DNA of 37,895 nucleotides, from the IMG/VR virus record IMGVR_UViG_3300048579_000033, positions 1-37,895 of that record; one strand, written 5' to 3'. A program made the translations under genes and the position numbers. Positions 1 through 34,272 of the stretch are shown one piece after another. The notes under the pieces were generated by a model. That model searched no databases. It worked only from the letters and a program-made list of their open reading frames with translations, and was not told the DNA's origin. Origin of the DNA: a virus. Taxonomy: Duplodnaviria > Caudoviricetes. Within the stretch, counting starts at the first letter, position 1, and each line of letters begins with the position of its first letter.

Positions 1-547
1 TGACCATCGGCAGGGCCGGGTCGAGGATGGCGATGTCGGGCACCATGTCGGCGGCGACAATCGGGTACTTGATGTGGTTTTCCGTGTCGGTGATCACCGA
101 GAAGGCCGTGATCTCGGAGGCCGTGCCGGACGTCGAGGGAATGGCGACGAAGCGCGCCTTGTTGCGGAGCGGCGGCATGGCGCCGACCGGGATGATGTCC
201 TCGAAGGTGAGGTTCGGATGCTCGTAGAAGCACCACATCACCTTTGCGGCGTCGAGTGCCGAGCCGCCGCCGATGGCGACGATCCAGTCCGGCTCGAACG
301 CCTGCATCGCCTTGGCGCCGCGCCAGACGGTCTCGACCGACGGGTTGGGCTCGACGCCGTCGATGACGATGGATTCGATGCCGCCCTTCTTCAGGATCTC
401 GATCGCCTGGTCGAGGAAGCCGAAGCGCTTCATGGAGCTGCCGCCGGTGACCAGAGCCGCCTTCTTGCCCTTGAGGTCGGCGAGCTTGGAGAGCGAGCCC
501 TCGCCGTAAATGATGGTGCGGGGAATGGAGAAGTTCATCACGGTCAT
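1..547 (-). CDS. Host iron-containing alcohol dehydrogenase (butanol dehydrogenase-like), 3' end outside window
   Basis: Manual translation MTVMNFSIPRTIIYGEGSL...GVEPNPSVETV...AIGGGSALDAAK...AIPSTSGTASE has the GGGS and PTT/SGT motifs of Fe-ADHs; SD AAGGAG before ATG at 547. Not in the ORF track because it is truncated. Confidence 0.92.
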   Translation of the reverse strand, partial: MTVMNFSIPRTIIYGEGSLSKLADLKGKKAALVTGGSSMKRFGFLDQAIEILKKGGIESIVIDGVEPNPSVETVWRGAKAMQAFEPDWIVAIGGGSALDAAKVMWCFYEHPNLTFEDIIPVGAMPPLRNKARFVAIPSTSGTASEITAFSVITDTENHIKYPIVAADMVPDIAILDPALPMV

Positions 548-910
548 CTCAGTCTCCTTGTCGGAACGAGGGGAGGGCTCGTCCGGACATGGGGGTCCGG
601 TCCGTCTCCACGAAGGAAGCGGGCGAGGCGGGCTCTCTATTGCGAGGTCTGGCGCGGGGCCGGGGAGGTCGGCGACCGCAGGAAGGTTATTTCCTGACGA
701 CTAGATCAGACTTTGGTCGCAGAAACACAAGTCATCTAAAAACGTTTAAGTCTTTGGCTCCGTGATATAAACGGTTTATATGTACAATATAATCATCTTT
801 ACTGTGAGGGGAAATACGAGGTCTTTGGTGGAGACTGGATGCCCGGAAAGATGCCTGCGCCGGAGGTGGCCGGCCAGTTCGCTTGATACAAGGGAAATGT
901 AGGGAGCGTT

Positions 911-964
911 TGGTGCGGACGGCGGGGATCGAACCCGCATGACCAAGGCCGAGGGATTTTAAGT
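911..964 (-). other. Prophage attachment junction: orphaned 3' half of tRNA-Leu(UAA), anticodon loop to CCA
   Basis: Minus strand reads ACTTAAAATCCCTCGGCCTTGGTCATGCGGGTTCGATCCCCGCCGTCCGCACCA (anticodon loop, variable arm, T arm, acceptor strand, CCA) with no D arm or 5' acceptor strand; tRNA similarity ends at the 7-nt loop CTTAAAA (957-963). Confidence 0.88.
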
Positions 965-1016
965 GCCTAGGTGGTTCGGGAAAGTGGCGGAATACTGGGG
1001 AAACTTGATGGGCTGT

Positions 1017-1066
1017 TGGTCACATAGCGCGGCGTTCGGGGGTGTTCTGGTCACAGGCTGGTCACA
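1017..1066 (+). repeat. Three direct TGGTCACA repeats, probable integrase arm-type sites
   Basis: TGGTCACA at 1017-1024, 1048-1055 and 1059-1066 (last two 11 bp apart), on the phage side of the att core. Confidence 0.7.
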
Positions 1067-1082
1067 AGTTTCAGAGGCGCGT

Positions 1083-1110
1083 CTTGTCGCCAATTCCCGG
1101 AGCATATAAA
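1083..1110 (+). promoter_or_regulatory. Putative host sigma70 promoter for the phage tRNA
   Basis: CTTGTC...CATATAAA ending about 12 nt before the tRNA; resembles alphaproteobacterial housekeeping promoters but spacing is imperfect. Confidence 0.4.
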
Positions 1111-1122
1111 GCGAGAGGTGAC

Positions 1123-1208
1123 GCGGACGTGGTGAAACCGGTAGACACAGCAGACTTAAAATCTGCCAGCCATTGGCTTTGCGGGTTCAAGTCCCGCCGT
1201 CCGCACCA
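1123..1208 (+). tRNA. tRNA-Leu, anticodon UAA, phage-encoded, CCA encoded
   Basis: Full cloverleaf: acceptor GCGGACG/CGTCCGC, D arm with GG, anticodon stem GCAGA/TCTGC with loop CTTAAAA, long variable arm, T arm GCGGG-TTCAAGT-CCCGC, discriminator A plus CCA. Confidence 0.96.
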
Positions 1209-1358: not shown

Positions 1359-2345
1359 ATGGACCTGAAAAAACAAACTCAGCTTAACCCCATCGCTGAT
1401 GAGGTCTTGGCCCTAACCGCTGTCGTTAGGCCCATCCTACTTGGTGTTGTGTCGTCCTTGAAAGCCGACGTTCTCTTTGAGGTTGGTGGTCGGGATAACG
1501 TAAAACTGAAGATGCTAAACAGATTATACAGACCCGGCGACGGGGATGTAGGTATATGTTTTGAGTACGCTGTTCACGATGCGATTACAAATCAGGATAA
1601 TAGAGTAATTGGTCGTGTAGCGGACGCTATGAAACTCTGTAACATCAGGTCAGATGATCCAAGTTCTCTGCTCTTTGGCTTCGAGAAGACGGGGGCGGTT
1701 CAGCTTATTGATACAGCAAGGAATATTCTCACCGACAAGTCACGGGCTTTGACTGGCATTGTCGGACAGCCACCAAAACTGCGTTCTCGCCTAAGCACTC
1801 TCGCAGCAGCGTTCCGGCGCCAAACGGCACGTCAGAGACTACCCGTTTCTATTCGAGGACTCTGGAAGGCTGATCTTTTCATCGGATCAACAAATACTCA
1901 GCAATGGGTTGGCACGTCGGTGAAGGTGAATCAAAGCCAACTAGAGGGAGCGGCTGGATTACGCGTCGGAATCGTCCCAGCCCGTCAAGGTGTGAGTGAC
2001 AACGTAAGGTTTGATGATAGTCGCAATCTAGTAATTTGCCCAATTCAGTATGACGGCGATTTTATGCAAATATTCTACGAAGGCTGGAGACTAGTTAAGG
2101 CTTTTCTGGATGCGGACGCTAATCTACCTAAGGAGGTAATGTTACCACACCCCGTCCATCGGGAGGTTTGTCGACTATTGGTAGAAAGGCGTGAGTTTCC
2201 CGTAGTCGACGTCATTGATGCGCTAAGGGTCTTTAGTCAGCCTGAATTACTTAAAACGGACACAGACAGTGTTTCTCTTGAAGACGTGAAGGGCGATGCC
2301 GAAACTTCAACGCTTGTTGCACCATTGGCCAGACCACTGACTTAA
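1359..2345 (+). CDS. Low-GC moron, hypothetical protein with PD-(D/E)XK-nuclease-like motifs
   Basis: 328-aa ORF opposite to the phage genes, visibly AT-richer; motifs GICFEYAV ... KADLFIG ... WVGTSVK resemble the E / D / xxK layout of restriction-endonuclease-fold proteins. CDS is solid, function is inferred. Confidence 0.75.
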   Translation: MDLKKQTQLNPIADEVLALTAVVRPILLGVVSSLKADVLFEVGGRDNVKLKMLNRLYRPGDGDVGICFEYAVHDAITNQDNRVIGRVADAMKLCNIRSDDPSSLLFGFEKTGAVQLIDTARNILTDKSRALTGIVGQPPKLRSRLSTLAAAFRRQTARQRLPVSIRGLWKADLFIGSTNTQQWVGTSVKVNQSQLEGAAGLRVGIVPARQGVSDNVRFDDSRNLVICPIQYDGDFMQIFYEGWRLVKAFLDADANLPKEVMLPHPVHREVCRLLVERREFPVVDVIDALRVFSQPELLKTDTDSVSLEDVKGDAETSTLVAPLARPLT

Positions 2346-2960: not shown

Positions 2961-3809
2961 TTACTTCGTGACGCTCACGAACGGTGTGGCACCTCCGGGC
3001 ACCATGGTTGTTGGCAGAACGCCGTTCCAGCGCTCCGCCGCTGTCAGCTCGACGAGGTTGGGGTTGTCCCGGAGGGCGGCACCCTTGGCCCTGATGGCAG
3101 CGGCTTCTGCCTCGCCACGGAGGCGAGCCGCATCGGCGTCGGCCTGAGCCTGGGCGCGGGTGGCATCGGCGTCGGCCTTCGCCTTGGTCACGGTGATCTC
3201 CGCTTGGACCTTCTCGCGCTCGGCGTTCTGCTTGAGCTTCTGGACCTCGATCTCGGCGCTCATGCGCTCTTCGATCTTGGCCTCGTATGCGTCCGAGAAA
3301 TCGATGTTCTCGACCTGGACTGCCTCGATTGTGACCGGACCTTCGACAGCTCCCTGAAGGGCGAGCTGAATGTCGGCGTTCAGCTTGGCGCGCTCGGTGA
3401 TGGCGCGGGCGGCGTTGTATTTGCCGAAGACGTTCTTGACCTGAGCCATCAGCTTGCGCTCGACGAGGCGCGACATGAGGTTTTCCTCGTTGCCGTACTC
3501 GCTGTAGACCAGCCCTGCTTTGTCGCCGGGGATCGAGTAGTTGACGGACACGGCCAGCGCGGCGGTCTGCTGGTCGGCGCTGTAGGCTGTCACGTCCGGG
3601 TAAGACTTGGCCTTCGAGCGGATGTCCACGGTAGCCACGCCGTCCACGAACGGCATCTTCCAGTGAAGGCCGGGTTCCTGGACTGCTATGATTGCGCCGT
3701 TCCGGATGACGACACCGCGCTCACCCTGATCGACCACGAAGAACGAACCGAACGAGGCGACGGCGAGAACGAAGGCGGAGGCGCCGAGGACGACGAGCTT
3801 AGCGGACAT
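2961..3809 (-). CDS. SPFH/prohibitin (band 7) membrane protein
   Basis: Start MSAKLVVLG after AAAGGA SD; N-terminal TM helix, VDQGERGVV...GLHWKMPF, IEAVQVENIDFS, AE/EA-rich coiled coil, WNGVLP end. Confidence 0.92.
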   Translation of the reverse strand: MSAKLVVLGASAFVLAVASFGSFFVVDQGERGVVIRNGAIIAVQEPGLHWKMPFVDGVATVDIRSKAKSYPDVTAYSADQQTAALAVSVNYSIPGDKAGLVYSEYGNEENLMSRLVERKLMAQVKNVFGKYNAARAITERAKLNADIQLALQGAVEGPVTIEAVQVENIDFSDAYEAKIEERMSAEIEVQKLKQNAEREKVQAEITVTKAKADADATRAQAQADADAARLRGEAEAAAIRAKGAALRDNPNLVELTAAERWNGVLPTTMVPGGATPFVSVTK

Positions 3810-3921
3810 GGCGATTTCCTTTCTTGGGGGTGTTGGCGGCGGTGGTGAGAAGCTGAGCTGCGGCGGCAAGGCCGAGCAGGAACACGACGGCGACCGTGAA
3901 GGCGCCGATGAAGGCGAGCAT
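3799..3921 (-). CDS. 40-aa single-pass membrane peptide coupled to the SPFH gene
   Basis: MLAFIGAFTVAVVFLLGLAAAAQLLTTAANTPKKGNRHVR; SD AGGAG; stop overlaps the SPFH start region. Confidence 0.7.
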   Translation of the reverse strand: MLAFIGAFTVAVVFLLGLAAAAQLLTTAANTPKKGNRHVR

Positions 3922-4028
3922 GAGGGCTCCTGTTGAGTTGTGAAAAATCCCCCGCTGTGAAGGCGAGGGCCGTTGGTCGGGGAGGCGCTGGCGTTCCCCG
4001 CGATTGAAGGTTGTGCTAGTGTGCTTTT

Positions 4029-4241
4029 ATGCAGACCGACACTAATCCAGACATCCTTGAACGCCTTCGTGCCGCCGCTCTCGGGGCAGACGACATAGAG
4101 ATCAAGGAGCTTGAAGCGCTTCTCGCAGAAGCAGCCGACACTATCGAGACGTTGCGGACGCGATCCGGAGGCGACGACGCCCCTCCGGCAGGGTTCCAGA
4201 CAACCATGAGAAGTGCTTTCAGCAAGAAACCCCCGCGCTAA
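4029..4241 (+). CDS. Small phage hypothetical protein (DILERLR...EAADTIETLR helical motif)
   Basis: 70-aa ORF convergent with the integrase; this helical motif recurs in small phage proteins. Confidence 0.65.
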   Translation: MQTDTNPDILERLRAAALGADDIEIKELEALLAEAADTIETLRTRSGGDDAPPAGFQTTMRSAFSKKPPR

Positions 4242-4342
4242 TCCTTCCTTTTGGAGACAAAGAGCGCTCAGGACGAGGAGGATGCAGCCTCGCCCGTCCT
4301 GGCAAACCGTCACGGTTGCGTCGACGTGCGACGGTCGCTTAC

Positions 4343-5374
4343 CTACGCGACCTGCGCTATTTGTTGGGGTTTCTCAAGGAGTGACACGATGTCCTCCAAA
4401 GAGGTCGGCTTGATCTGCATGTACCGCATGGTCGTGACGATGGCCGAATGGCCCATCCACTCCATGACACGCTTCACGTCGGCACCCCCGAGCACTAACC
4501 GGGTGCAACAGGTGTGCCGCAGGGTGTGCGGGGTCACGTCCTCGAACTGAAGAGCGCCCCGCATCGTGTCCCATCTGGACCTCATGGCCTCCACCTTGAA
4601 CCCCGTGAAGGGCGCGGTCGGGTGCGACTTCTTGCGCCGCTTCAGCACCTCTTGGCACCGCTTGGTGAGCGGAACGGTGCGCGGCTTGTTGGTCTTTGTG
4701 TGCCAGAAGGTGACCGAGCGGAGGCCGGGGCCGAAGGCATCCCAGCGAACCGGGATCATCTCCGAGAAGCACCGGGCGCCCGTGTCGATGAGCAGGATCG
4801 AGAGGTCCCGCAGGTCGTCGTAGCCCATGCGTTCCCAATAGGCGAGCAGGGCGCGCTCCTCCATGTCGTCCAGATACCGGAAGCGGGTCTGTGCGATCTG
4901 GTTCCAGCGAAGCCGGGGGGCTGCGTCGATGACGCCGTTCTCCCGAGCCACGGTGAACATCTTGGAGAGGGCGGCGACCTTGCGGTTGATCGAGGCGGGG
5001 GTCAGTCCCTTGGCGGCGAAGTGAACCTTCATGTCCGCCGCGTCGGCCGCTGTGATCTCCCCGACCACCTTGTTCCGGCCGAAATACTCGACCACCTGCC
5101 GGCCATTCCGCATCAGGGACGCAGAGGACCGCATCTGGGACCACTCGGTGCGGCAAACGTGGTCGTAGAGTTTCCCGAGGGTCGAAAGGTCTCGATCTGT
5201 GGTCTTTCGGGGGACCGAGACGGCCGGGGGGAGGGGCTTTCCCATCTCCACGGCTTCTTTCGCATTGATCTCCCATGCCACCGCCTCCGCTTCGGTGCGG
5301 AAGGTGGGGCGGAGCCGTTGGCCGTCAGCCGTCCGAATGTCGGCTTGCCATAGTTTCCCTCGAAGTCGCGCCAT
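4343..5374 (-). CDS. int: Tyrosine integrase
   Basis: DTGAR, TKTNKPRTVP, HTLRH, MGH and TMRY catalytic motifs; N-terminal arm-binding-like segment; SD AGGAG. Confidence 0.96.
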   Translation of the reverse strand: MARLRGKLWQADIRTADGQRLRPTFRTEAEAVAWEINAKEAVEMGKPLPPAVSVPRKTTDRDLSTLGKLYDHVCRTEWSQMRSSASLMRNGRQVVEYFGRNKVVGEITAADAADMKVHFAAKGLTPASINRKVAALSKMFTVARENGVIDAAPRLRWNQIAQTRFRYLDDMEERALLAYWERMGYDDLRDLSILLIDTGARCFSEMIPVRWDAFGPGLRSVTFWHTKTNKPRTVPLTKRCQEVLKRRKKSHPTAPFTGFKVEAMRSRWDTMRGALQFEDVTPHTLRHTCCTRLVLGGADVKRVMEWMGHSAIVTTMRYMQIKPTSLEDIVSLLEKPQQIAQVA

Positions 5375-5741
5375 AGGCGTCTCCTATTGTTCGATCAATA
5401 TCCTCGCTAAGCCGAGCACCGAGCCGGGTAGGGGCGAGGAGGTTGCCGCGACCGTCGCTGGGGTCGGCGATCTGGGTGAGGAGGTTGAGACCTTCCTTCT
5501 CGGCACCCGAGCCGTCGTCCTTGTAGACGCCGCTCCCTAGGAGCCGAACCGCCCGCGATAAGGCCGCTTTTGACAGGCCGGTCACCTTCATGAGTTCGCT
5601 TGCTCTCATTCCGGGGTGTTCCAGCACCCGCAAGAGCACGGCCAGTTGGCCCATTTCCATGCGCGGATAGTGTTCGCGGATGCTGTCAATGACCCGGATG
5701 AGAGCCCGAATGCCGGCTGCTTTCTGCGAAATGTCGCTCAT
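5325..5741 (-). CDS. MarR-like winged-helix regulator, probable prophage repressor
   Basis: QLAVLLRV..HPG...SEL...TGLSKAALSRAVRLL HTH and wing DPSDGR; directly upstream of and overlapping int. Start could be 5741 or 5753. Confidence 0.85.
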   Translation of the reverse strand: MSDISQKAAGIRALIRVIDSIREHYPRMEMGQLAVLLRVLEHPGMRASELMKVTGLSKAALSRAVRLLGSGVYKDDGSGAEKEGLNLLTQIADPSDGRGNLLAPTRLGARLSEDIDRTIGDAYGATSRETMASRHSDG

Positions 5742-5755
5742 AGCTGACCCCATTT

Positions 5756-5771
5756 GTTCCTGTAATGGGCG
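5756..5771. promoter_or_regulatory. 16-bp operator-like motif, copy 1 (repressor leader)
   Basis: GTTCCTGTAATGGGCG; consensus GTTCCTRTARTGGGWC. Confidence 0.7.
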
Positions 5772-5772
5772 C

Positions 5773-5802
5773 ATCTATGAGTTACAAACACGCCCCCGTC
5801 AA
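5773..5802 (-). promoter_or_regulatory. Putative sigma70 promoter for repressor-integrase operon
   Basis: Minus strand TTGACG-N17-CATAGAT immediately followed by operator copy 1. Confidence 0.55.
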
Positions 5803-17035: not shown

Positions 17036-20000
17036 TTACTTCTCGGGCCGATCAGAGATCAGCATTCCAAGCGCAGCGGTGAGAGGGGCCCAATTCCCAA
17101 GCGGAGCGAAGGCGCGGACGCCCGCCTTGATCTGGGTTTGGGTCATGTCCTCGTCCTCCCAGAACGCCGAAGCCGCCCCTCTCGTGAACTGAGCGGCGCT
17201 CTTAAGCTGGTCCGTCACGGGCGAGCCGAGGAACGCATCAGTGGGTGATCCAGAGGCGCGGGCCTGACCGAATTGTGGGCCAAGCGGGGTGAATTGGAGG
17301 AGGCTGTCGAGGAACATCGGTACTACGGAAGCGGTGGCAGTTCTGGCCCAACCGTTCTTCAGTAGGTTCACCGGGTCCATCGTTTCCTCCCACTTCTCAT
17401 CATCCAGCAGGGCGGTTCCAGATTGCCGAACGGCGAATGTGGCGACGCCGAAAGCCAGCTCCCCGAGCAGGAGAACAAGCATCCTCGGATCCGTGAAGGC
17501 GCCGTGGTTCAGGGACCAGAGCGTGGACTTTGCGAAGGCGCCGAACACGAAGGACCTGAATTGCACGAAGAGGGACGCGACGGGGTTCGACATCCACTTC
17601 GAGAGGGCGCCGTAGTCGTTCATCTGGACTAAGCGGTCGGTGTATCTCCCGAGGAAGACCCGAAACTTGCTGACGGCGTCGGTGTCCCATGCGGCGGTGT
17701 TGATGCCAACAATCTTCCGCCCCTCGAACTCAGAGTGGTCAAGTATGTTACGGAACAAGAGCTTGGCGTCTTTTTCTCCGAGGCCAATGGACGCTAGGCG
17801 ATCGCGGTCGCGCGGCTTGATCTTGGAGAAGTCGAAGCTGCCGTCCGCTCGGCGCGCTTTGCGGGCCATGCCGGCGATCTGCTGGGTAATGGCCTTCATC
17901 GCCCAACGCTGCTGATAGGCGGTGATATGCCGCATTAGAGAGACGTTGGTGGTGAGCCGCTGCCCGGCGTCGAGAACATTGTCCACGAACTGCGTGATCC
18001 GCCCGCCCGTCTCCGCACCCAGCCGGTCATCGGCGAGGCGGAGGTCGTAGCGGCTCCACAGGTTCTCAAGGCCAATTCCGGTCATGTCCGTGAGTTCGTT
18101 CAGGAGCCGGTCGCGGCTTGCACCGCTGGTCTTGGCCGTCCGGGCGAGCGTTCGAATGGCGGGCATCTGGGACACCGCCGCCCGGAAGCCGGTGAGCGAC
18201 ACGATCTTCCACGTCTCCTGCACCTGATTGAGGCCCATGTTGGACATCAACCGAATGAACTGACTGGTCTTGATGCGCCGCGCCCACTGAGCGAATGCCT
18301 TCTCCTGCCCGTAGACCGGAATGCCGTTGATCCGCTTCCAACCGAAGTCGATGTTTTCGAGCATGTTCGCCAGCTCCTTCTCCTTCGCGGAGCGGGGGCC
18401 GGGCATTAGCCGGTAGCTCTCTGCAAGGGACTGTTTGAGCTTGGAGAGGTCGGCTTCGGAACGCAGTCCGTCAGCGATCATCTCACCGTTGGAGGGGTTG
18501 ACGATCTTGGTCTTGGCGAACTCTATCCGGCCGGACATGCTCCGGGCGTAGCGCCGGAACAGCAGCTCAGCGTCATCCTCGAACAGGTCCCGCATTCGGA
18601 GGTCAATCGTGCCCCCTTCGCGCGTCTGAAGGGATGCACGGTAGTCGTAGTCGAGGAGCGTCCGGCGCTTGAGATAGCCGACCCCCTTCGAGCTGTCCGA
18701 TGCCGGCTTTTTCGCCGCGTCCATCATTCCCGACAGGAGGTCGAACACCTGCCCAATCTCATCGTCCGAGAGGAGGTTCTTGTTATCCAAAGCCTCGTAG
18801 AAGGCGTTCTTGAAACCCTCGCGGTCGTTGATGTGGAGGGACTTGGACATCCCATCCTCGATCCCGAAGCCGGCCTTTCGGATGTTGCTCCAGTAGCCGC
18901 GCGCCATCTTCTGCGCCAATTCCTCCGAAATCTCGGACGCGTGCTGCCGGATGGCGTCCTTGATGAACCGCTCCATGACCTCGTTGTGGATCAACTGGTC
19001 GAGGTGGGCGATGCGCTCGTGCTTCGCGACAAGCGGGAGATAGTGGGGGTCAGCAGCGCCGTTCCAAAGCCCCGCCCGGTTCAGCTCATCCGCAAACTCG
19101 GCCATCTGCTTTCGAAGAATGCCGCCCGCCTTCACGACGTGTTGGTTCGTCTCCGGTGAGGGGTGCGGGTCCCAAATGTAATCGGAGACCAGCCGGTTGA
19201 ACTCGGCCTCGCGCTTGGCGCGCCCCGTCATGTTCAGCGTCGAGAGGTTTCCTTCGGCGATATAGGCGTTCTTCGCCGGTAAGTACGTGAGATCGAAGTT
19301 GCCCGTCATCTTTCGATGGAGAGCAACGAAGCGGGAGTTCACGCTGTCCGGGACGACGCTGTGGTCCGCGAAGCCGGCCGTCTCCTCGAAGAAGCTCGCA
19401 CCAATCAATCGGGCCAACGGGTTCTTCGCCGTGGTCATCTGGCCGGTCACGTCGCCCTTGCGGAGCCATCCGCCGAAGCCGCGCGCCACGTCCTCGTCCC
19501 TGATCTCAATGGCAAGTTCCCGATCCGCAGGAATCAAGCTGTCACGCTGGAGGGGGTTGCGGGCGGCACCAGCGTTGCCGGGCAACGGTGCGCCTGAGGC
19601 GGTCGGCAACTGGTTCGCCCTGGCCGCCGCTTCCAGCGCCAGATCAGCCTCGAACCGGGCGTTGGGGGCACGCATCAGCATTCCACCGAAAGCTCCGAAA
19701 ACGGCGCCGATCCCGGCGGCCGCTAGCGGGTCCGCATGGGGGTCCGAGAAGGCGCGCTGCGAGCCATAGTCGATGGCCGCATTGGTGACGGCTCCGACTG
19801 CGGAGGAGGTCGCAACGCGCCCAACGGTGCTGAAGCCCGCGAGCGCAGCACTGCCTATGCCGCCTGTTAGGAGAGACGGAATGGACACAATCGGGTCCAC
19901 GGCACCGGCTAGAAGACTAGCACCAGTGGCGGACCAGCCCCCCGCAGCAAGGCGCTGCTGGCGCTCCACGTCCTCCGAGGCCCACTTCAAACGCTGCTGG

Positions 20001-20776
20001 AGCACGACTTCAGAGCCGGAGGACAACAGGAAGTCCCGGTAGTTCTCCGGGTACTGCTTCGCGATCTCGACGCCGCGCTCTTCGCCGATGGTGAAGTTCG
20101 GATCGTAGGTGCCCTCGCTCGCCCACCGAAGGGCCTGAGCGGTGATCGTCTGTGAGCTGAAAGCGGCCCCGAATTCCTGACTGAAGCTCTCATAAGGCTG
20201 GGGCGCTCGGGCGGCAGCTTCCCGCTGCTCGACGACATTCGCGGGCCTGAAGGACCCAACTGAGGCGCCCGGATCGGTGGTGATCTGTGGTCGAATGTCA
20301 CCGTCAACGGGGTCGAAAGGGTTGGTCTGTTCGGACGGGGTGAACTCGCCGTTCAGGAGGCGGACAGCGTTCTGCTTATGCCCCTCCATCTGCCCATTGA
20401 CCTTGTCGCGGACGGTGCCGGGCGCGCCGCCAGCGGCTTCATCCGATCGGTCGTAGAGACCGGGGCCGCCCGCGTTGATGATGGAGTACATGTCGAGGAG
20501 GCCCATACCGGGCTGATATCCGCGATCTACGAGGTATCGAGCCGAGGCCGCAACCAAGTCCTCAATCGGGGCACCCTCGCTATAGCCGTACTGCTTTCGC
20601 TGGGGGCCGCCCATCTGGATCAGTCCACGGTGTGTTCCCCACTTCGTGGTCGGCCCCTTCTTCCAAGGATCGAAAGTTCCGCCGGTCTCGTAGGACATGA
20701 CGGTGGCGAGGTCCGCCGGGTTCGCTCCAATGCGCGCGGCTTGATCTTTGATAGCCGCCGCCAATCGCTCGTTCAT
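17036..20776 (-). CDS. Internal virion (ejection) protein, gp16-like, with N-terminal lytic transglycosylase-like domain
   Basis: 1246 aa; VMSYETGG...GLIQ SLT-like motif; synteny. Confidence 0.85.
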
Positions 20777-20823
20777 TCACTCTCCTGATGATGGGACCCG
20801 CCGAAGCGGGCCCCGCGTGATGT

Positions 20824-23292
20824 TCAGTGTCCGCCCTTCACCACGGTCTTGCCGTTGATGGTGACGTTCGGGACGAGGTAGCTGAGCCAATCGCTGTATG
20901 CCTTCAGGGCCACGGCTCCGTCCCCGATGACGGTCTTCTTCATGGCTTCCGTCACAGCGTCCTGCTCCTGCCTGACGACGCCGGCCTCTCTGGCGAGACG
21001 GTCGTCTAGGTTCTGCTGGAGCTTTCGGGCGATGGCCTGACTGAGCGGGCCGGTTTGACGGCGCCAGCGGTCAATCGCTGCTCGCTCGGCGGCAATCTCC
21101 TCGTCGTGCTGCTGTTTGAGTGCCGCCCGGTCGGCTTCCTTAGCCTTGGCGAGAGCCCGCATCTTCTCCTCATCTGCGGCAGATTTCTCGGCGCGGATAG
21201 TGGACAGCGTCGCCGGGGTAATGGGGTCGGCGCTGATTGGGGCGAGGCCGTGCGCCTTGCTGTAGACGTACCACCGGTCCTCGGAACCGCTCGGAACCAC
21301 ATAAAGGTCGGAGGGGTCCGTGATGCCGAGGCGGGCCCCGTCGGTCGCAACCCGCTTCTTCAGCGCCTCTTCCATCAGGACCGGGAAATCGTCGGGGAGG
21401 TCCCGGTGATTGAAGACCAGAACCCCGTTGATGGGGATCGCGGTGTTCTTCAGATCGTCCGCGAGGCTGTCCTTGATCTCCGCGTCGGTGAGCCCCATGC
21501 GGGACAGGCTGGAGATGCGGTCCATGACGTGGAGGTAGTTGGGCCCGCGAACGTCAGCCCCGAGTTCGTCGAGCATCTTCCGGGCGAGCCGGTCGGCGTC
21601 GGCGATCTTGATCATGCCCTTGGCTTTCGTGGCCTCAGGCAGCGCAATCTGCTGCGCCGCGTAGACCAACGCTTCGTCCTCCGGCATCCGGCGGGCCGAC
21701 AGCGCGTTGTCGTAGGTCTCTAGGAACTCCTTGGACTTCGGGTCCGTGAGGATGGTGGAGAGGTAGGCCGGATTGACCGCCTTCAGGTCCCGATAGAGCC
21801 GCGCACTGTCCTTGAGGTAGGCCGAGACCTCGCCCTTCTGGAGCAACGTGTCGAGGGTGGCGCGACCGGCGAAGCCGTTGAGGGTGTTCTGCCAGCCGGT
21901 GTTGACGATCTTGTTGCCCGCATACCAGTCCGTTCGGGCCCGGTTGACCTGACGGCGGGCGTCCTCCTCGGAAGCTCCACCGGCGATCAAATCCTCCTGC
22001 ATCCGACCGAAGGCGGCCTCCTTCATTTCCACCACGCGGTCCACGATAGTCTGTTTGGCAATCCGCTTGGTTCCTTCCCCGCTCGGGGCCGCTATCTCAA
22101 CGTCCTTGAGATCGTTGACGCCGCCCATTCGCTCCATGGCTCCGAATGCCTGGGCGTAGACCCGGTCTTCCTGCCGGTCGCTCTCCGCGCTGAGTTCCCG
22201 GCGGCGCTGCTCGTTCGCGTGGCGGGTTTCGGCCGCAAGGCGGTAGCCGCTGGACTGGTCGACCATCGAGGCCAACTCGGCATCGGTGTACAGGCTCGAA
22301 CCCTTGCGCTTCTCCGCCTCGGCAGCGGTGAAGGCGCCACTCCGAACCAGCTCGTCGTCCGTCATGAACTCCGAGAGGCCGGTTTCGCGGGCCTTCTTCC
22401 GGCTCACCTCAGCCGCCTGATCGAGCAGCTTCAGGGCCTTGTCGGTGTACCCTGCGATCTTCGTCAGGGCCGGAACAGTGCGCCCATCGGAGCCCGTTCG
22501 GGTCCCCTCAAGCAGCGCTCGGGCGACCTCCTCGTTGCCCTGAAGGGCGTACTCCTCGGCAACGCGGAAGATCGTGTCATTCTGCTCTTGACCGGAGAGG
22601 CCGAGGAAGTCCCTGTTAGCGGCCGACTTCGTGAAGATCATCGCGGCGATCTCCTGCGGCGTCTTTCCCTCGCGGGCGGCGTCGTCGATGGAGTTGCGGA
22701 AGCCGTCCACGATGGTCGTGTTGAGCTGCTGCTTGGCGTAGCTCACCCGGTCCTCGGTGTCCTTCTCCATCCACGCGGAGAAGTGATCCTTGGTCAGGCG
22801 ATAGAAGTTGCCCTTAGCGATGTCGTTCGGGAGCCCTTCGGCGTAGGTCTGCCGGAGACGTTCGTACTCCCCAGCGGCGTTGCCGGAGGAGCGGTCGAAG
22901 CCGGTGTTATAGAACTCCAGCCACGACTTGCGGAAATCGTCGTTCGCCCGCTCGCCAAGCATGACGTTGAGCGCATCCTCGCGGACCCGAATGCCGTCAG
23001 GGGTGCCGTTCTTGGCTTCCTCTCGGAGCTGATCGAGCGACATCTGCTGGCGCCGGCCGATCCACTCGCGGTTCTCGCGGGACTGCGGATCGTCCTCCAC
23101 CGCGTCCTTGACGGCAGCGTAGTTGAGGAGGGCCGAATTCAGGCCACCAAGAGCGGACGCGAGGGCGTTGAGGTTGCCCCCGACCTGTCGCTCTTGGGGC
23201 CGGACGAAGGTGCTGCCGGGGATGCCGGCGGGCTGAATACGGGTCTGCTGGAGGGGCGCAACGCGCGCGCCCGTGCCAAATAGTCCTGCCAT
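20824..23292 (-). CDS. Internal virion protein, gp15-like
   Basis: 822 aa, helical, syntenic position. Confidence 0.8.
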   Translation of the reverse strand: MAGLFGTGARVAPLQQTRIQPAGIPGSTFVRPQERQVGGNLNALASALGGLNSALLNYAAVKDAVEDDPQSRENREWIGRRQQMSLDQLREEAKNGTPDGIRVREDALNVMLGERANDDFRKSWLEFYNTGFDRSSGNAAGEYERLRQTYAEGLPNDIAKGNFYRLTKDHFSAWMEKDTEDRVSYAKQQLNTTIVDGFRNSIDDAAREGKTPQEIAAMIFTKSAANRDFLGLSGQEQNDTIFRVAEEYALQGNEEVARALLEGTRTGSDGRTVPALTKIAGYTDKALKLLDQAAEVSRKKARETGLSEFMTDDELVRSGAFTAAEAEKRKGSSLYTDAELASMVDQSSGYRLAAETRHANEQRRRELSAESDRQEDRVYAQAFGAMERMGGVNDLKDVEIAAPSGEGTKRIAKQTIVDRVVEMKEAAFGRMQEDLIAGGASEEDARRQVNRARTDWYAGNKIVNTGWQNTLNGFAGRATLDTLLQKGEVSAYLKDSARLYRDLKAVNPAYLSTILTDPKSKEFLETYDNALSARRMPEDEALVYAAQQIALPEATKAKGMIKIADADRLARKMLDELGADVRGPNYLHVMDRISSLSRMGLTDAEIKDSLADDLKNTAIPINGVLVFNHRDLPDDFPVLMEEALKKRVATDGARLGITDPSDLYVVPSGSEDRWYVYSKAHGLAPISADPITPATLSTIRAEKSAADEEKMRALAKAKEADRAALKQQHDEEIAAERAAIDRWRRQTGPLSQAIARKLQQNLDDRLAREAGVVRQEQDAVTEAMKKTVIGDGAVALKAYSDWLSYLVPNVTINGKTVVKGGH

Positions 23293-23295
23293 GGA

Positions 23296-23820
23296 TTACG
23301 ATGTCCGCTTCACATAGTCGGAGTAGGCGCTGAGCCCGGACCCGAAGGCGTTGAGGAGGTATGGGGCGGCGCTTGGTTTCTCAGGCAGCGGGACCGAGTT
23401 GATCTGGCTTTGCCCCTGAGCCTCGGCCGACTTCATTTCGCCGAGGAGGTAGTCGCGGCTCATGCGCTGGTTCGCATCGAGTGCCGCATCGTTCCGCCCC
23501 TGTTGGGCGTAGATGTCGCGGATCATGGCGTCCACGGACAGGCCGGACACTCCGCCCTCTGAGGCCGCTACTTGGGCAGTTGAGGCGGCTTTCGCGGCTT
23601 CAATGCCGGCCTCAGTTTGCTGCTGGACGCGAGCTGCATCCTCCTGCTGAGACCGGATGGAGATGTTGGAATACTGGTTTTCTGCGGCGAGAGAGGCATT
23701 GATGGCGTTCTGCTCATACACCTTCATCTGCTGCTCATACTGAGCATTCGCCGCGCTGTACTGCATGGCACTCTGAGCGATGCCAAGCCCCATAGACGCG
23801 ATGGCGATGAAATCACACAT
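23296..23820 (-). CDS. Internal virion protein, gp14-like
   Basis: MC start, Ala/Gln-rich, EGGVSGLSVD motif. Confidence 0.85.
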   Translation of the reverse strand: MCDFIAIASMGLGIAQSAMQYSAANAQYEQQMKVYEQNAINASLAAENQYSNISIRSQQEDAARVQQQTEAGIEAAKAASTAQVAASEGGVSGLSVDAMIRDIYAQQGRNDAALDANQRMSRDYLLGEMKSAEAQGQSQINSVPLPEKPSAAPYLLNAFGSGLSAYSDYVKRTS

Positions 23821-24286
23821 GGTGGCTAATTCGGGCGAACTCGATCACGGGGACCTTGTGCGCCCCGAAGTTCTCGATCCTTCGGATGAACTTGAAACCC
23901 AGCCACTTGAGCCACCGGTGGTGGACCTCGTTGCGGGCGTCACAGACGTTGAAGAGAGTGTCGTAGGACTTCCCCAGCTCGCTGATCACATCGAGCGATC
24001 CACGCAGGAAGCAGGTACGACGGCGAGTGAGGAGCGAGGTCCCCGAGAGCGCGACAGCGCCCCCGGAAAGTCCGACCGGCACCACCCCCAAAATCCCGAG
24101 AAGGTCACCTTCTGGGGATCGCAGGGTCAGTGAGGGAGCGCCGATCAGGACCCCAAGGAGTAGGTTGTGGATCACAGGCTTTCCCGTGATGTCCTCAACC
24201 TCTCTCCGATCCTCCGGGCGGATGTTCGCCTCCAGCTCGTAAGCATCGGCGAACGTGGCTCGGGTGACGATGCCGTGAGGGGTCAG
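23813..24286 (-). CDS. gp13-like virion assembly protein (GNAT-like fold), probable non-canonical start
   Basis: LFNVCDARN...RWLKWLGF motif; in-frame upstream segment LEANIRPEDRREV looks like the family N-terminus but lacks ATG/GTG/TTG. Confidence 0.8.
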   Translation of the reverse strand: MTPHGIVTRATFADAYELEANIRPEDRREVEDITGKPVIHNLLLGVLIGAPSLTLRSPEGDLLGILGVVPVGLSGGAVALSGTSLLTRRRTCFLRGSLDVISELGKSYDTLFNVCDARNEVHHRWLKWLGFKFIRRIENFGAHKVPVIEFARISHHV

Positions 24287-24297
24287 TGCTTTCTTTC

Positions 24298-26685
24298 TTA
24301 TAGGGAGAGAGACGTGACCTCACCGGTCCATCGGTAGGACAGGACCGAGTAAGGGTAAGGCCCCCGGTTGCCGAATTTCAGCCTGAAATCGTCGGCCTTC
24401 GTCATCACGGAGAGGGCCTTCTTGATCTTGCCGATCACGAGCGAGCCGACCTTGCCGGTCTTAGTCCCGACGAGGGCTGCCGACAGTCGGTAGAGGAAGT
24501 GCTTGCGGTAGTCGCGGGACAGGGTCACGTCGAGATAGGCACATGCGCCCGTCTCAAGAATGACCGTGGCGACCGACAGTTCGGTGCCGGGGATGGCGTT
24601 GCCGTAGGCGCCTTGGTTGTTCTGCGTCCGGTGATGGAGCTTGGACAGAATGCCGTAGCTTTCATAGACGAAGCCAGCGTAGGCCCACTGAGCGTGGTTG
24701 CCGGGAACGCTCAGGGCGTTTCCCGAGGGCGTCGCCGTGTCAGGCTGTAGCCCGAAGTCGGCGCCATCGCGGAACACCAGCGAGGCCCCCAGAGCGCCAT
24801 AGGGCAGCGTGAAGGTGGTCATGTCGCTGGCCGCATCGTAGACACCGAGGACTTCCGTCCTGCGGTCGAGGAAGATCGTCACCTCGCCGTTGTCAGTCCA
24901 CGCCTCGTGGCAGTTGATCGAGAGGATTTCGCGAGACGTGGCCCGGTTGGTGACCACCACAAGCTCCTCGCCGAAGAACTTCATGCCCACGATGGGGTCC
25001 GGAAGGGTCCACTTCTGCCATGCCGACTGTGCCTTCTCGGTGCCGATCCAGAGCCACTTGTAGCAATAGAGCGAGTTCGGCTCATTGGCGGACACCATTA
25101 GAAGTATCTTCAGATCCTCGTCGGCTTCGAGAAGTGTGAGACCAGACGGGATATATCCCGAAACGTGGTCGGTGATCGTCGGCGCCGCCTTGATCCCCAC
25201 GTCTTGATCATAGGTGAACTCGTGTATGAAGCAGCCGGAAGGCACGTCATTCACAAAGTAGAGCCGATCCCCCGCGACAACAGGCCGAACCTTGGCCGAG
25301 GTCTTATTCGACAGGACGGGCTCGATGCTCACCGAAGTCGGTGTGAAGGTGTCGCCGCCGGAAAGGCGGAAGGGAACCGAGGCGGTGAAGAGCATCATCT
25401 GCCCCGAGAACGGTACAGCATGTTTGATGTCGGAGACCTCTGGGTACGAGATCGCAACATCAATTGGGTCCGTGTCGAGCGTGGTCAGAATGCTCTCGCG
25501 GAAGAAGTTGAAGAAGTCCTCGTGGCGGGACAGAGCACAAGCCTCTCCCGAGAAGAAGCCGACGCGGTTCTTGAAGAAGATCATGCCGTCGATGGTATGG
25601 TCGACGAAGGACGGCCACGGGTTCGTCTCCAGATCGCCGACCTCGCGCTCGCCCCAAGCCGCGGCCTTGAACGTGAAGGTGCCGTCGCTCTCGCGGACGA
25701 GAATATGTGGCATGGTAAGCGGATCGAGCTTGTACGGGATCGCGGAGCCGACCGTCTCTTTCCAACGGCCTTGAGCGGCGCCCGCCGCCTTCTCGAACTT
25801 GACATAGTAGTCGTCGTAGGCGGTCTCCTCTGAGCCCGAGATTTCAAGGCAGAACCCCTCGGGCGCCTTTCGGGGCAGCTCAGAGAAAACGGTAGAAACA
25901 CCTTTGTGCGCGCGCGCCTTGGTCTCCGATCCAGCTGAGACCTCCAAGGAGAAGTCTCCGCCATTGGTGCGGCGGACGTGGATCACGTTGTCGTAGACCG
26001 TCAAGAACCAAGCGCTCCCCAAGGTGGAGGAGAGGTGGGAAGCCGGGGCGGCTGGTAAGGTGGCGACGCCGGCCGGGGGGTTACCAAAGGCCAACATGTT
26101 GGCAATGACGCCAGTCCGGGCACCACGTTCGGCCGCTCGGGCATCCGACTCGGTCGCGTAAGGGCCGCCATCGGTCGTGTACCGGGCCTTCACGGCGCCA
26201 TCGATCAGGACCGAGTAATCGTTGTGATAGTCGCCCTGAACAATGTGGATCAGGCCCTCCTTGCCGAACGCAGGGGTCAGGGCCGCCGAGGCTTGTACCT
26301 TCTTGCGCTTGTTCAGGATGAAAGTGTGGTCGGCAACGGTCAGCGCCTCAAGGTCGCCATCTCCAGCACCTGCGAGATACCCGTAGCCTTCGGGGGCATT
26401 CACGGTCTTCGGGTTGCCGGCAAGATCGGTCACCTCGACGCCGTTAGGGTTGATCGTGACCACATATTGCTCACCGTCATCGCGGTCTATGAGGTGGGTG
26501 GTGGAGTTCTCGGGGTTGGTGGAGCCGATGACGCCGCGTAGGCGGGCGGGGTTCCGGGGAACAAGACCGCGTGTGACCGTGGGAAACTGGTTCACGCTGT
26601 CTTCGAGCTGGGAGGTGAGCCGCACCTCGGTTGGCTGTCGGCTCACTCCATTGATCAGGTTGGGAGAACCACCTTCGGCCCTCAA
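24298..26685 (-). CDS. Tail tubular protein B (gp12-like)
   Basis: NLINGVSRQP, INRD-like LIDRD, TVADHTFILN, FFKNRVGF, QSAWQKW; TTG start with GGAGG SD. Confidence 0.95.
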   Translation of the reverse strand: MRAEGGSPNLINGVSRQPTEVRLTSQLEDSVNQFPTVTRGLVPRNPARLRGVIGSTNPENSTTHLIDRDDGEQYVVTINPNGVEVTDLAGNPKTVNAPEGYGYLAGAGDGDLEALTVADHTFILNKRKKVQASAALTPAFGKEGLIHIVQGDYHNDYSVLIDGAVKARYTTDGGPYATESDARAAERGARTGVIANMLAFGNPPAGVATLPAAPASHLSSTLGSAWFLTVYDNVIHVRRTNGGDFSLEVSAGSETKARAHKGVSTVFSELPRKAPEGFCLEISGSEETAYDDYYVKFEKAAGAAQGRWKETVGSAIPYKLDPLTMPHILVRESDGTFTFKAAAWGEREVGDLETNPWPSFVDHTIDGMIFFKNRVGFFSGEACALSRHEDFFNFFRESILTTLDTDPIDVAISYPEVSDIKHAVPFSGQMMLFTASVPFRLSGGDTFTPTSVSIEPVLSNKTSAKVRPVVAGDRLYFVNDVPSGCFIHEFTYDQDVGIKAAPTITDHVSGYIPSGLTLLEADEDLKILLMVSANEPNSLYCYKWLWIGTEKAQSAWQKWTLPDPIVGMKFFGEELVVVTNRATSREILSINCHEAWTDNGEVTIFLDRRTEVLGVYDAASDMTTFTLPYGALGASLVFRDGADFGLQPDTATPSGNALSVPGNHAQWAYAGFVYESYGILSKLHHRTQNNQGAYGNAIPGTELSVATVILETGACAYLDVTLSRDYRKHFLYRLSAALVGTKTGKVGSLVIGKIKKALSVMTKADDFRLKFGNRGPYPYSVLSYRWTGEVTSLSL

Positions 26686-27252
26686 TCAACTCCTCCTTGT
26701 CTTCTCGGAGATGCTTGTGTTGTTCAGGAGGTTGTAGTTGGCGTTCCGAATGGTGGCCTTGTCGAAGGCAACCTTTGCCCGGAGGAGGTTTCGGTTCCTC
26801 GCTTCGGTCACGGCATTGGCGCCGGGGAACCCATCCACGAACCTCTCGACCGCCATGGCGGTGATATATCGGCGGACAACGCTGGGCAGCTCGTCCCATG
26901 CAAGATGCAGGATGACGGAGCACTCAACGGCCGCGCTAAACGTGAAGGTTCTGTTCTCTCTGTCGTAGAGGCGGGGGCCTCGCTGGATGCAGTCTCCATT
27001 GGTGCTGTCGATGCTAAGCACGTTCTGGGGGATGACGATCTCTCCGGCCATGTTCGGCGTCAGGGAGTAAGCGTCTTCGCTGTTGAACCAGTGTCCCTCT
27101 TCCTGAAGGTCCCGAGAGACCGACCGAAGGACCGAAAGGGCGGTGCTGCCGGACGGCGGCAGGTTGTCGAGGCCCTCAACCGGGTCCTCGCCGATGGCGG
27201 CCAGAAGCTCGCTGACCGCCTGAACCTCGCTAGAGGCGCCTAGTGTTTCCAT
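26686..27252 (-). CDS. Tail tubular protein A (gp11-like)
   Basis: AVSELLAAIGEDPV, GHWFN, LYDR, WDELP motifs. Confidence 0.95.
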   Translation of the reverse strand: METLGASSEVQAVSELLAAIGEDPVEGLDNLPPSGSTALSVLRSVSRDLQEEGHWFNSEDAYSLTPNMAGEIVIPQNVLSIDSTNGDCIQRGPRLYDRENRTFTFSAAVECSVILHLAWDELPSVVRRYITAMAVERFVDGFPGANAVTEARNRNLLRAKVAFDKATIRNANYNLLNNTSISEKTRRS

Positions 27253-27265
27253 CTGAGTTCAAACC

Positions 27266-27300
27266 AAAAAAGCAGCCGAGGCCCCCGAAGGGACCCCGGC
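27266..27300 (-). terminator. T-phi-like terminator after the capsid gene
   Basis: GCCGGGGTCCC-TTCG-GGGGCCTCGGC-TGC-TTTTTT. Confidence 0.88.
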
Positions 27301-27308
27301 CAACTTGA

Positions 27309-28253: not shown

Positions 28254-28317
28254 GTGTGTATTTTCCTGTGATTGTTTTGGATGGAGATGGTCCGTCCAAG
28301 AACGACACGCAGGAGTT

Positions 28318-28373
28318 CAAGATTGTCCGCCGCGAGTTCCCCTCGGGGTCTTCGCTTCGGGTCAAGCCTCTTG
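28318..28373 (-). ncRNA. Putative structured 5' leader element upstream of the capsid gene
   Basis: Nested pairing CAAGA/TCTTG, TTG/CAA, CCG/CGG, GCGA/TCGC, CCC-CGAG-GGG. Confidence 0.5.
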
Positions 28374-28545
28374 TTTGTGTTGCTTGATTGGAACCTGAAG
28401 TCACCGTCGAGTGGACAGTGCGACTATGATTCCCATTCACAGGTCATGGCGGGGTGCCCCACCTACAGCGCGTCCGCTGAGGCATCCCGTAGGCTCGGGA
28501 GTTTCTTGGCTTGCCGGGGCAGAGGCCGAGGGGCGTATCAGGAGG

Positions 28546-28821
28546 TCAGAGGAGGCTTTCGTAGAAGGCGATGAGGCGGAGGCCACATCCCGTCTTGTCA
28601 GCCTCGGACTTCTTGAGGGCGGCGATCAGCGACAGAACGCGCGCCTTCGTCATGGGGCCGGCAACGGGCGCCGGAACAGCGCTGTCAAAGCAAACCGCTA
28701 GGTCAGCGGGCAGCGGGGGGAGTTGCGGCGGGAGCGGAACCGTCGTTCCAGAGGTCCCGCAGCCGGTCAACATCAGGGCCGCTAAGGCACTCCCTATCGC
28801 GGTCCTGAAGAGTTTCGACAT
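28546..28821 (-). CDS. o-spanin (Rz1-like lipoprotein)
   Basis: MSKLFRTAIGSALAALMLTGC lipobox, Pro-rich mature part, overlaps the i-spanin 3' end. Confidence 0.85.
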   Translation of the reverse strand: MSKLFRTAIGSALAALMLTGCGTSGTTVPLPPQLPPLPADLAVCFDSAVPAPVAGPMTKARVLSLIAALKKSEADKTGCGLRLIAFYESLL

Positions 28822-29728: not shown

Positions 29729-29765
29729 GCGTGGGCCCCCGGCAAAAACCGGGGACCCTCCTTCG

Positions 29766-32280: not shown

Positions 32281-32285
32281 TCAGG

Positions 32286-32668: not shown

Positions 32669-32675
32669 GCCGTTT

Positions 32676-34254: not shown

Positions 34255-34272
34255 GTCAGAGCCTCCGCGCCG

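What the first reader, a model, noticed from the sequence alone, without database searches (positions are those of the whole stretch)
911..1208. Prophage splits a tRNA-Leu(UAA) at the anticodon and carries its own replacement with a different anticodon stem
Seen: the junction is the 3' half of a tRNA-Leu(UAA) cut at CTTAAAA, and about 160 bp inside the phage, in inverted orientation, is a complete tRNA of the same isoacceptor. The two share the acceptor 3' strand and T stem but differ in the anticodon stem (TCTGC vs TCCCT) and variable arm. The phage flank CCTAGGCA forms a 6/8 inverted repeat with TCCCTCGG around the 7-bp core, as expected for integrase core sites. Known: some mycobacteriophages need their own tRNA to complement the attB tRNA. 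Inference: this T7-like phage may destroy the host gene and complement it in trans, and the altered stem may stop its own tRNA being an Int target.
Basis: partly seen in the sequence, partly recalled or inferred. Interest (0 to 1): 0.85.

Follow-up and report, generated by a model that had tools for sequence, protein, structure and literature searches.

The report
Prophage splits tRNA-Leu, carries spare copy
A T7-like prophage ends in the anticodon loop of its host's leucine(UAA) tRNA gene and carries its own complete copy 160 bases inside that end, which likely keeps the host alive because the host gene is likely left broken, as it is in related prophages whose two ends can be seen; this strategy is already described.

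Summary
Observation confirmed. Window 911-963 (-) is the displaced 3' half of a host tRNA-Leu(UAA); the host is Pleomorphomonas by its flanking ADH gene. A 7-bp core and three arm-type repeats mark the junction, and a complete, oppositely oriented tRNA-Leu(UAA) with another anticodon stem lies at 1123-1208. The far end is outside the record, so non-restoration is inferred from relatives. The host 5' half is left unrepaired in the nearest provirus (G001) and in 5 of 5 GTDB elements with this layout. Phage Pasto, the closest cultured relative, has a bare core beside the same reversed tRNA. The gene is single-copy in 23 of 23 matched family genomes. In G036 an identical tRNA, left in a decayed prophage at the same site, is the only tRNA-Leu(UAA) found. 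This is tRNA-dependent lysogeny: shown experimentally in mycobacteriophages and already inferred for T7-like Rhizobium and Pelagibacter phages, including the idea that a divergent stem blocks self-integration. That idea stays untested. The stems differ in 11 of 11 cases, but capture from other species would often give that too. Verdict: new member of a known kind.

The parts
2..547 (-). Host iron-containing alcohol dehydrogenase, 5' part; fixes the host as Pleomorphomonas-like
   Evidence: PF00465; 98% to cluster representative P0121, whose named members are mostly Pleomorphomonas
911..963 (-). Displaced 3' half of host tRNA-Leu(UAA), from anticodon loop to CCA (attR)
   Evidence: 52 of 53 bases equal to the intact gene in G042; intact gene upstream of ADH in 7 family genomes; contig in run X2 continues into the 5' half
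957..963 (-). 7-bp core CTTAAAA = anticodon loop; predicted strand-exchange region
   Evidence: the same loop-centred cores in all split relatives
964..971 (-). Phage-side flank CCTAGGCA, imperfect inverted repeat of the host 3' flank; predicted core-type integrase site
   Evidence: 6 of 8 by direct reading; 1 mismatch in 5 next to the core
1017..1066 (+). Three TGGTCACA direct repeats (1017, 1048, 1059); predicted arm-type integrase sites
   Evidence: kept in G036, similar TGGCAC repeats in Pasto
1084..1112 (+). Candidate promoter of the phage tRNA, TTGTCG-17 bases-TAAAGC
   Evidence: Spacing and -10 region kept in G036; not called by the consensus scan, which needs a T at the last -10 position; untested
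1123..1208 (+). Complete phage-borne tRNA-Leu(UAA), stem GCAGA/TCTGC, with encoded CCA
   Evidence: ARAGORN; 86 of 86 to the G036 copy, 81 of 86 to chromosomal genes of G030/G033, 68-69 of 86 to host-type genes
1359..2345 (+). Cargo gene of unknown function (phrog_30306) in a 50% GC stretch
   Evidence: no Pfam or PADLOC hit
2961..4313 (-). SPFH/Band 7 gene, also between integrase and tRNA in Pasto and after the integrase in G001
4343..5374 (-). Tyrosine integrase
   Evidence: PF00589, phrog_1; 70% to G001, 57.5% to Pasto
5325..5774 (-). MarR-like regulator upstream of the integrase
   Evidence: PF12802
12456..37858 (-). T7-like packaging, virion and replication genes (terminase to primase/helicase); record ends here
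   Evidence: terminase 79.7% to Pasto

Best explanation
A Pasto-like temperate T7 relative has its right end in the anticodon loop of the Pleomorphomonas tRNA-Leu(UAA) gene, likely leaves that single-copy gene unrepaired at its unseen left end, and carries a complete tRNA-Leu(UAA) that likely replaces it and is likely needed for the lysogen to live. Shown in the window: displaced 3' half, core, arm repeats, complete reversed tRNA, integrase and MarR genes. Inferred: the integrase crosses over within the 7-bp loop; attP holds only this core with short inverted flanks and no tRNA half; after integration the host promoter and 5' half run into the phage RNA polymerase region and the 3' half has no promoter; the phage tRNA, 192 bp core to core from the junction and facing away from lytic transcription, is made from its own promoter and reads UUA codons. 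No other tRNA is expected to read UUA (established decoding rules), so the copy acts as a lock: losing it without precise excision would be lethal.
For: (1) G001, nearest integrase (71%, starred clade in the quick tree): host 5' half + core is followed by non-tRNA sequence and RNA polymerase 313 bp on; its other end runs into a reversed tRNA-Leu 3' part where the record is cut. (2) Of 17 GTDB loci with integrase identity 50% or more, 5 have this layout; the far junction was found and is unrestored in 5 of 5, and the element's tRNA was the only complete gene of that anticodon found by pattern in 5 of 5 genomes. Three of the 5 are T7-like prophages with RNA polymerase just behind the broken 5' half. 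(3) Unintegrated forms: Pasto has a reversed tRNA-Leu(UAA) and a lone core 207 bp away with no tRNA half; L103 likewise for UAG. (4) One intact Leu(UAA) gene in each of 23 of 23 matched genomes of 27 in the family; 298 of 329 matched genomes of 401 in the order have one pattern match (hand count). (5) G036: same junction and identical tRNA in a 2-kb remnant with no integrase hit; no host-type 5' half found with up to 3 mismatches, and the upstream host gene runs on without tRNA. (6) Only 10 of 845 Leu codons in 27 phage genes are TTA, so the phage has little lytic need for it.
Against: The left junction of this phage is not in the record, and no attP copy was found (0 matches). 12 of the 17 GTDB loci do not show the layout: 1 restores the gene by a direct repeat (L028), 8 have a full tRNA nearby, 6 of them with short 3'-end repeats, and 3 have no tRNA in the locus. 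A 2.3-kb element at this same tRNA in run X4 carries the 3' half at both ends, so restoring elements use this site too. Split and other states are mixed across the integrase tree, so relatives do not guarantee the state. G011, G014 and G036 are draft assemblies with the ends on different contigs. Expression and essentiality are untested.
Confidence: 0.87

Rival explanations
1. Ordinary tRNA-site integration: attP carries a 3' half that rebuilds the host gene at the unseen left end, and the tRNA at 1123-1208 is a spare picked up by imprecise excision.
For: The left end is unseen. L028 (same integrase family, 57%) restores Leu(UAA); a restoring 2.3-kb element occupies this tRNA in run X4; G203 appears to rebuild the gene with an element-supplied 5' half.
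Against: None of the restoring cases has an inverted full tRNA about 190 bp inside a displaced 3' half; every element with that layout and a visible far end is unrestored (G001, 5 GTDB cases, L267). Pasto's attP region has no tRNA half.
Confidence: 0.06
2. Two nested elements: 964 to about 2456 is a separate or older element that split the tRNA, and the T7-like phage ends elsewhere, for example by integrating into the tRNA at 1123-1208.
For: 964-2560 is 50% GC against 62% for the rest. A 582-base contig in run X1 matches 2018-2456 and its other 143 bases do not lay on the window. Small non-phage elements with this layout exist (L025, L037, L267).
Against: Pasto, G003, G011, G014 and L103 have the order integrase, variable genes, reversed tRNA, core. 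G036 links the same junction and tRNA to the phage's SPFH gene with different cargo between. No third exact CTTAAAATC in the window. Both stem strands of the 1123-1208 tRNA pair with each other and not with the host type.
Confidence: 0.04
3. Sub-question: the different anticodon stem is selected so that the integrase cannot use the phage's own tRNA as a target (first reader; also proposed in PMC8631192), rather than being a by-product of capture from another species.
For: Element and host 3' stems differ at 2-4 of 5 positions in 11 of 11 measured cases. G001 is reciprocal: host arm GCAGA, phage 3' stem GCCCT. The window's changes fall 3-5 bases from the core, where core-type sites are expected (recalled, lambda paradigm).
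Against: Among 33 chromosomal Leu(UAA) genes only 28% of pairs share the stem (mean 1.55 mismatches), and the 11 cases are not independent (window/G036 and L025/L259 are near duplicates). A 71%-identical integrase targets GCAGA-core-TC. attP flanks themselves differ from the host arms by 0-4 of 5, so these integrases tolerate mismatches.
Confidence: 0.5
4. The phage tRNA mainly serves lytic growth (codon supply or a counter to tRNA-cleaving defence).
For: General proposals cited in PMC10865867; a divergent stem could escape a host nuclease (inference).
Against: TTA is 10 of 845 Leu codons. The element's anticodon tracks the target site: UAA, UAG or CAA in 11 of 11 cases. The gene persists in elements with no lytic genes found (L025, L037, L253, L267, G036).
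Confidence: 0.03

Closest known systems
tRNA-dependent lysogeny of actinobacteriophages (Fionnbharth, Cluster L, Cain, Gaia; PMC10865867, parts 1, 2, 4, 5 of 8 read)
   Same: Tyrosine integrase, short core inside the anticodon region, arm-type repeats, no rebuilt tRNA, phage tRNA of the same anticodon on the opposite strand, mixed split/restoring relatives.
   Different: T7-like podophage in an alphaproteobacterium; Leu(UAA); tRNA fixed about 190 bp from attP; requirement not tested here.
Rhizobium vTRX32-1/RHEph01-like temperate Autographiviridae (PMC8631192, passages read)
   Same: T7-like prophages that interrupt a host tRNA-Leu at a 12-bp motif and carry a tRNA-Leu lacking the motif; authors propose replacement and prevention of super-integration.
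   Different: Their motif is the UAG loop; terminase only 57-58% identical and their integrases were not among the 17 hits at E<=1e-30.
Rhizobium phage Pasto (MT708545)
   Same: Closest cultured phage: terminase 79.7%, integrase 57.5%; order ArdA, peptidase, HTH, integrase, SPFH, reversed tRNA-Leu(UAA), bare CTTAAAA core, RNA polymerase. PMC10134795 (passages) states that it integrates in Agrobacterium, citing Boeckman 2022.
   Different: Different host, stem (CCGGA/TCCGG) and cargo. Boeckman 2022 was not held, so whether it describes the split is unknown to me.
Pelagiphages HTVC119P, HTVC200P, HTVC025P, HTVC019P (bioRxiv 10.1101/410191, passages and section 11 read)
   Same: T7-like phages that break tRNA-Leu(TAA), tRNA-Leu(TAG) or tRNA-Cys without repair and carry the cognate tRNA, said to be likely used instead.
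   Different: SAR11 hosts; the Leu(TAA) gene lies upstream of the integrase.
Lo5R7ANS-like prophages of Sinorhizobium meliloti (PMC11476347 and PMC12429752, passages read)
   Same: Central disruption of tRNA-Leu(UAG), replaced by a prophage copy closer to other species' genes.
   Different: Integrase 35% identical; tRNA in direct orientation in Lo5R7ANS.

Membership tests
tRNA-dependent lysogeny | Tyrosine integrase acting at an attB inside a host tRNA gene | tested here: met
   PF00589 gene 3.4 kb from a junction in the anticodon loop, with arm repeats; the catalytic link is inferred
tRNA-dependent lysogeny | Short common core; host tRNA not rebuilt at either junction | tested here: inconclusive
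   Right junction has no 5' half. Left junction absent from the record; unrestored in G001 and 5 of 5 GTDB look-alikes, bare core in Pasto
tRNA-dependent lysogeny | Phage encodes a tRNA with the same anticodon | tested here: met
   tRNA-Leu(taa) 1123-1208
tRNA-dependent lysogeny | Disrupted host tRNA is non-redundant | tested here: inconclusive
   Host genome not held; one copy in 23 of 23 matched family genomes of 27
tRNA-dependent lysogeny | Phage tRNA is expressed and required for lysogen survival | not testable with these tools
   Needs deletion and RNA data; indirect support from G036, where it is the only copy found
Temperate T7-like phages (Autographiviridae, Pasto-like) | T7-type virion and replication genes in T7 order | tested here: met
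Temperate T7-like phages (Autographiviridae, Pasto-like) | MarR-like regulator and integrase module | tested here: met
   5325-5774 and 4343-5374
Temperate T7-like phages (Autographiviridae, Pasto-like) | Single-subunit RNA polymerase | tested here: inconclusive
   Not in the window, which ends in the helicase gene; present behind the left junction in G001, G003, G011, G014
Canonical tRNA-restoring integration | attP carries a tRNA half that rebuilds the gene | tested here: inconclusive
   No 5' half supplied at the visible junction; 3' half at the unseen junction cannot be excluded; absent in look-alikes

The most novel reading that the evidence does not exclude
These phages permanently swap their hosts' tRNA alleles. 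The spare tRNA locks the element in; when the prophage decays, the host's own 5' half and promoter can be lost and the phage copy becomes the cell's gene (G036; 0.8-kb remnant in G014). The phage-type allele also sits seamlessly at the native locus in G030 and G033. Sister phages carry reciprocal stems, so host allele and integrase specificity may chase each other, with the swapped allele giving immunity to the phage that delivered it.
Probability: 0.3. Interest if true: 0.58.

Novelty: new member of a known kind. Interest (0 to 1): 0.32.

Why it matters
The mechanism is known; this adds a Pleomorphomonas case and shows that a fixed module (attP core, arm repeats, reversed tRNA 179-204 bp away) recurs across Hyphomicrobiales for three leucine anticodons, in full prophages and in 4-8 kb islands. 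It offers two things the papers I read lack: a natural end state in which the phage tRNA is the only copy found after prophage decay (G036), and a reciprocal pair of stems (window and G001) that makes the self-target-avoidance idea directly testable, with Pasto as a cultured model.

Tried and rejected
The laid genome is only the window. An exact search for the phage flank plus core in viral contigs gave 0 matches. No RNA holder listed, so nothing on expression. Runs X1 and X2 show little cover beyond about 2500; low-depth contigs, not used as evidence. Inversion switch between the two inverted cores: rejected, the hybrid stem would pair at 3 of 5 positions, one of them G-U. First idea that G001 restores its tRNA at the integrase end (note): rejected once its left end showed the unrepaired 5' half. 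The promoter scan called nothing upstream of the tRNA. RNAfold does not give a clean cloverleaf for either intact tRNA, so folding energy was not used; the window junction and the G001 junction fold no better than shuffles. The cargo gene's 20 relatives sit in unrelated contexts: 1 of 10 scanned loci had a tRNA, a Met. The Rfam scan of five genomes gave no anticodons and was not used for copy number. The integrase tree is the quick tree only, with two long branches meeting. G036 had no hit for the integrase or for window 18000-37895. Searches of our findings by the first word set and by sequence were empty. No listed paper combined Pleomorphomonas with a prophage in the top 10 of 452. Boeckman 2022 not held; supplementary figures of PMC8631192 and 10.1101/410191 were not seen and may hold att alignments that bear on novelty.

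Full report
Observation. The window is a whole virus record of 37,895 bases. Bases 2-547 encode the start of an iron alcohol dehydrogenase; the rest is a T7-like phage read on the minus strand: SPFH gene, tyrosine integrase, MarR-like regulator, ArdA, terminase, virion genes, DNA polymerase, and a primase/helicase cut by the record's end. On the minus strand 963->911 is the 3' half of a tRNA-Leu(UAA) starting at the loop CTTAAAA. The only tRNA gene is Leu(taa) at 1123-1208 on the plus strand. Three TGGTCACA repeats lie between the core and the tRNA and nowhere else in the window, as expected for arm-type sites of a lambda-like integrase (expectation from PMC10865867).

Host and empty site. The ADH clusters with proteins named mostly for Pleomorphomonas. 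In the family of G003, 23 of 27 genomes matched a Leu(UAA) 5'-half pattern and each has one intact gene. Seven have it intact upstream of the ADH: five with stem AGGGA/TCCCT and two (G030, G033) with GCAGA/TCTGC. G042 matches window 1-968 at 94% and its 3' half differs at 1 of 53 bases. A contig in run X2 covers 705-968 and goes on into a tRNA 5' half. So 911-963 is host DNA and the crossover lies in the loop. In a sample of 401 genomes of the order, 329 matched and 298 of these once (hand count; several doubles are plainly not tRNAs).

The unseen end. G001, a complete provirus with the nearest integrase (70%), has the host promoter and 5' half, CTTAAAATC, then non-tRNA sequence and RNA polymerase. 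Its other end runs into a reversed Leu(UAA) 3' part where the record stops. The GTDB scan kept 80 of 364 loci, 17 with identity of 50% or more. Five of the 17 show a complete tRNA reversed against a displaced 3' half: L024, L032, L035 (UAG), L025 (UAA), L037 (CAA). The far junction is unrestored in all five, and the element's gene is the only complete one of that anticodon found by pattern. G003 holds a 42-kb T7-like prophage with both junctions on one contig. The other 12 loci do not show the layout: one restores Leu(UAA), eight have a full tRNA nearby (six with short 3'-end repeats), three have none. Of 80 metagenome loci kept from 101, I examined the ten closest plus L265; L259, L262 and L267 show the layout, L267 with both ends and unrestored. 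Unintegrated genomes agree: Pasto has a reversed Leu(UAA) gene and a lone core with inverted flanks 207 bp away, before its RNA polymerase; L103 does the same for UAG. Core-to-core distance is 179-204 bp in 10 of 11 integrated cases, 192 in the window.

A natural end state. G036 has the same junction, the arm repeats, the candidate promoter and a tRNA identical to 1123-1208. Two kb on, a truncated SPFH gene meets ROK and ABC-transporter genes; no integrase or virion-region match was found. The gene that normally lies upstream of the tRNA (PF03330) is on another contig and is followed by no tRNA; a 27-base 5'-half pattern with up to 3 mismatches finds only the phage-type copy. The two contigs end in what look like halves of one ABC operon, the second ending in a transposase-like tail (transposase reading recalled), so adjacency is inferred, not assembled. 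G014 has a 0.8-kb insert in Leu(UAA) that holds a complete copy in direct orientation and no integrase hit. Both fit a tRNA that cannot be lost.

Mechanism. Shown: anatomy of the right junction, the complete tRNA, the integrase module. Inferred: crossover in the 7-bp loop, no repair on the left, expression from TTGTCG-N17-TAAAGC (not called by the scan), and dependence of the lysogen on the phage gene. Lytic codon need is unlikely: 10 of 845 Leu codons are TTA, and the carried anticodon follows the target in 11 of 11 cases.

The stem. Element and host 3' stems differ at 2-4 of 5 positions in 11 of 11 cases, and G001 is reciprocal to the window. Against selection: only 28% of pairs among 33 chromosomal Leu(UAA) genes share a stem, the cases are not independent, attP flanks differ from host arms by 0-4 of 5, and G001's integrase uses the GCAGA arm. 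G203 has the same 5-base stem on both sides but looks like repair by a supplied 5' half, with a 36% integrase. The window's tRNA is 81 of 86 identical to the chromosomal genes of G030 and G033 and 68-69 of 86 to the host type. G030 and G033 form one clade nested among AGGGA genomes in two midpoint-rooted trees, which leaves open whether they gave the allele to the phage or received it. I put selected avoidance at even odds.

Known work. PMC10865867 (parts 1, 2, 4, 5 of 8 read) defines and tests tRNA-dependent lysogeny. PMC8631192 (passages) describes T7-like Rhizobium prophages that interrupt tRNA-Leu and carry a copy lacking the att motif, proposed to replace the gene and prevent super-integration. 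bioRxiv 10.1101/410191 (passages, section 11) reports it for pelagiphages at Leu(TAA). PMC11476347 and PMC12429752 (passages) report it for Lo5R7ANS-like prophages. PMC10134795 (passages) states that Pasto integrates, citing Boeckman 2022, which was not held. Seven searches listed no paper whose title or seen passages cover a Pleomorphomonas case or permanent replacement after decay; I saw only listings for most hits. An earlier finding of this scan (e1-4237312) reaches the same reading in another genome; it is an unchecked note, not support.

Verdict. Real, well supported by relatives (0.87), not proven for this phage, and a new member of a known kind. Interest 0.32. The part worth following is the permanent allele replacement and the reciprocal stems.

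Noticed in passing
G036: L249 9304-11400 and L336 2840-3050: Decayed prophage remnant at the same site; its tRNA is identical to window 1123-1208 and is the only Leu(UAA) found; host promoter and 5' half not found.
   Followed up: yes
G030 L231 1454-1539; G033 L233 1484-1569: The phage-type tRNA allele (81 of 86 identical) sits at the native chromosomal locus with a host-type promoter and no second half nearby; donor or recipient unknown.
   Followed up: partly
G014: L253 14300-15190: A 0.8-kb insert splits tRNA-Leu(UAA) and holds little besides a complete copy in direct orientation; the same genome has a T7-like prophage splitting Leu(UAG).
   Followed up: partly
L025 9267-17165; L037 9290-16450; L267 88-3985: Islands of 4-8 kb with the same split-and-replace module and no T7 virion genes found; L025 carries an AAA_13 ATPase, a CAP12/Pycsar TIR protein and a resolvase, so the tRNA may lock in defence cargo.
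   Followed up: partly
L027, L029, L031, L033, L034, L036: Close homologues of this integrase (54-60%) lie inside 8-19 kb stretches bounded by 3'-end repeats of tRNA-Ala, Thr, Leu(CAG) or Phe; no second homologue in these loci; L027 and L030 carry an internal-virion-protein gene. Possibly satellites or retargeted integrases.
   Followed up: partly
run X4, 3113-base contig laid on window 898-968: A 2.3-kb element with the tRNA 3' half at both ends occupies the same tRNA: the site is used by restoring elements too.
   Followed up: no
window 1359-2345: phrog_30306 cargo gene, facing against the phage genes, 50% GC; no Pfam or PADLOC hit; replaced by other cargo in G036.
   Followed up: partly
G203: L376 1750-11776: A 10-kb element with helicase and a 36% integrase leaves the host 5' half broken and ends in a full Leu(UAA) in direct orientation, likely repair by a supplied 5' half.
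   Followed up: partly
G001: L255 and L002: In G001 the terminase and tail fibre hits lie on the opposite strand to portal and capsid within one stretch and also near the integrase, suggesting a duplication or inversion in this 56-kb record.
   Followed up: no
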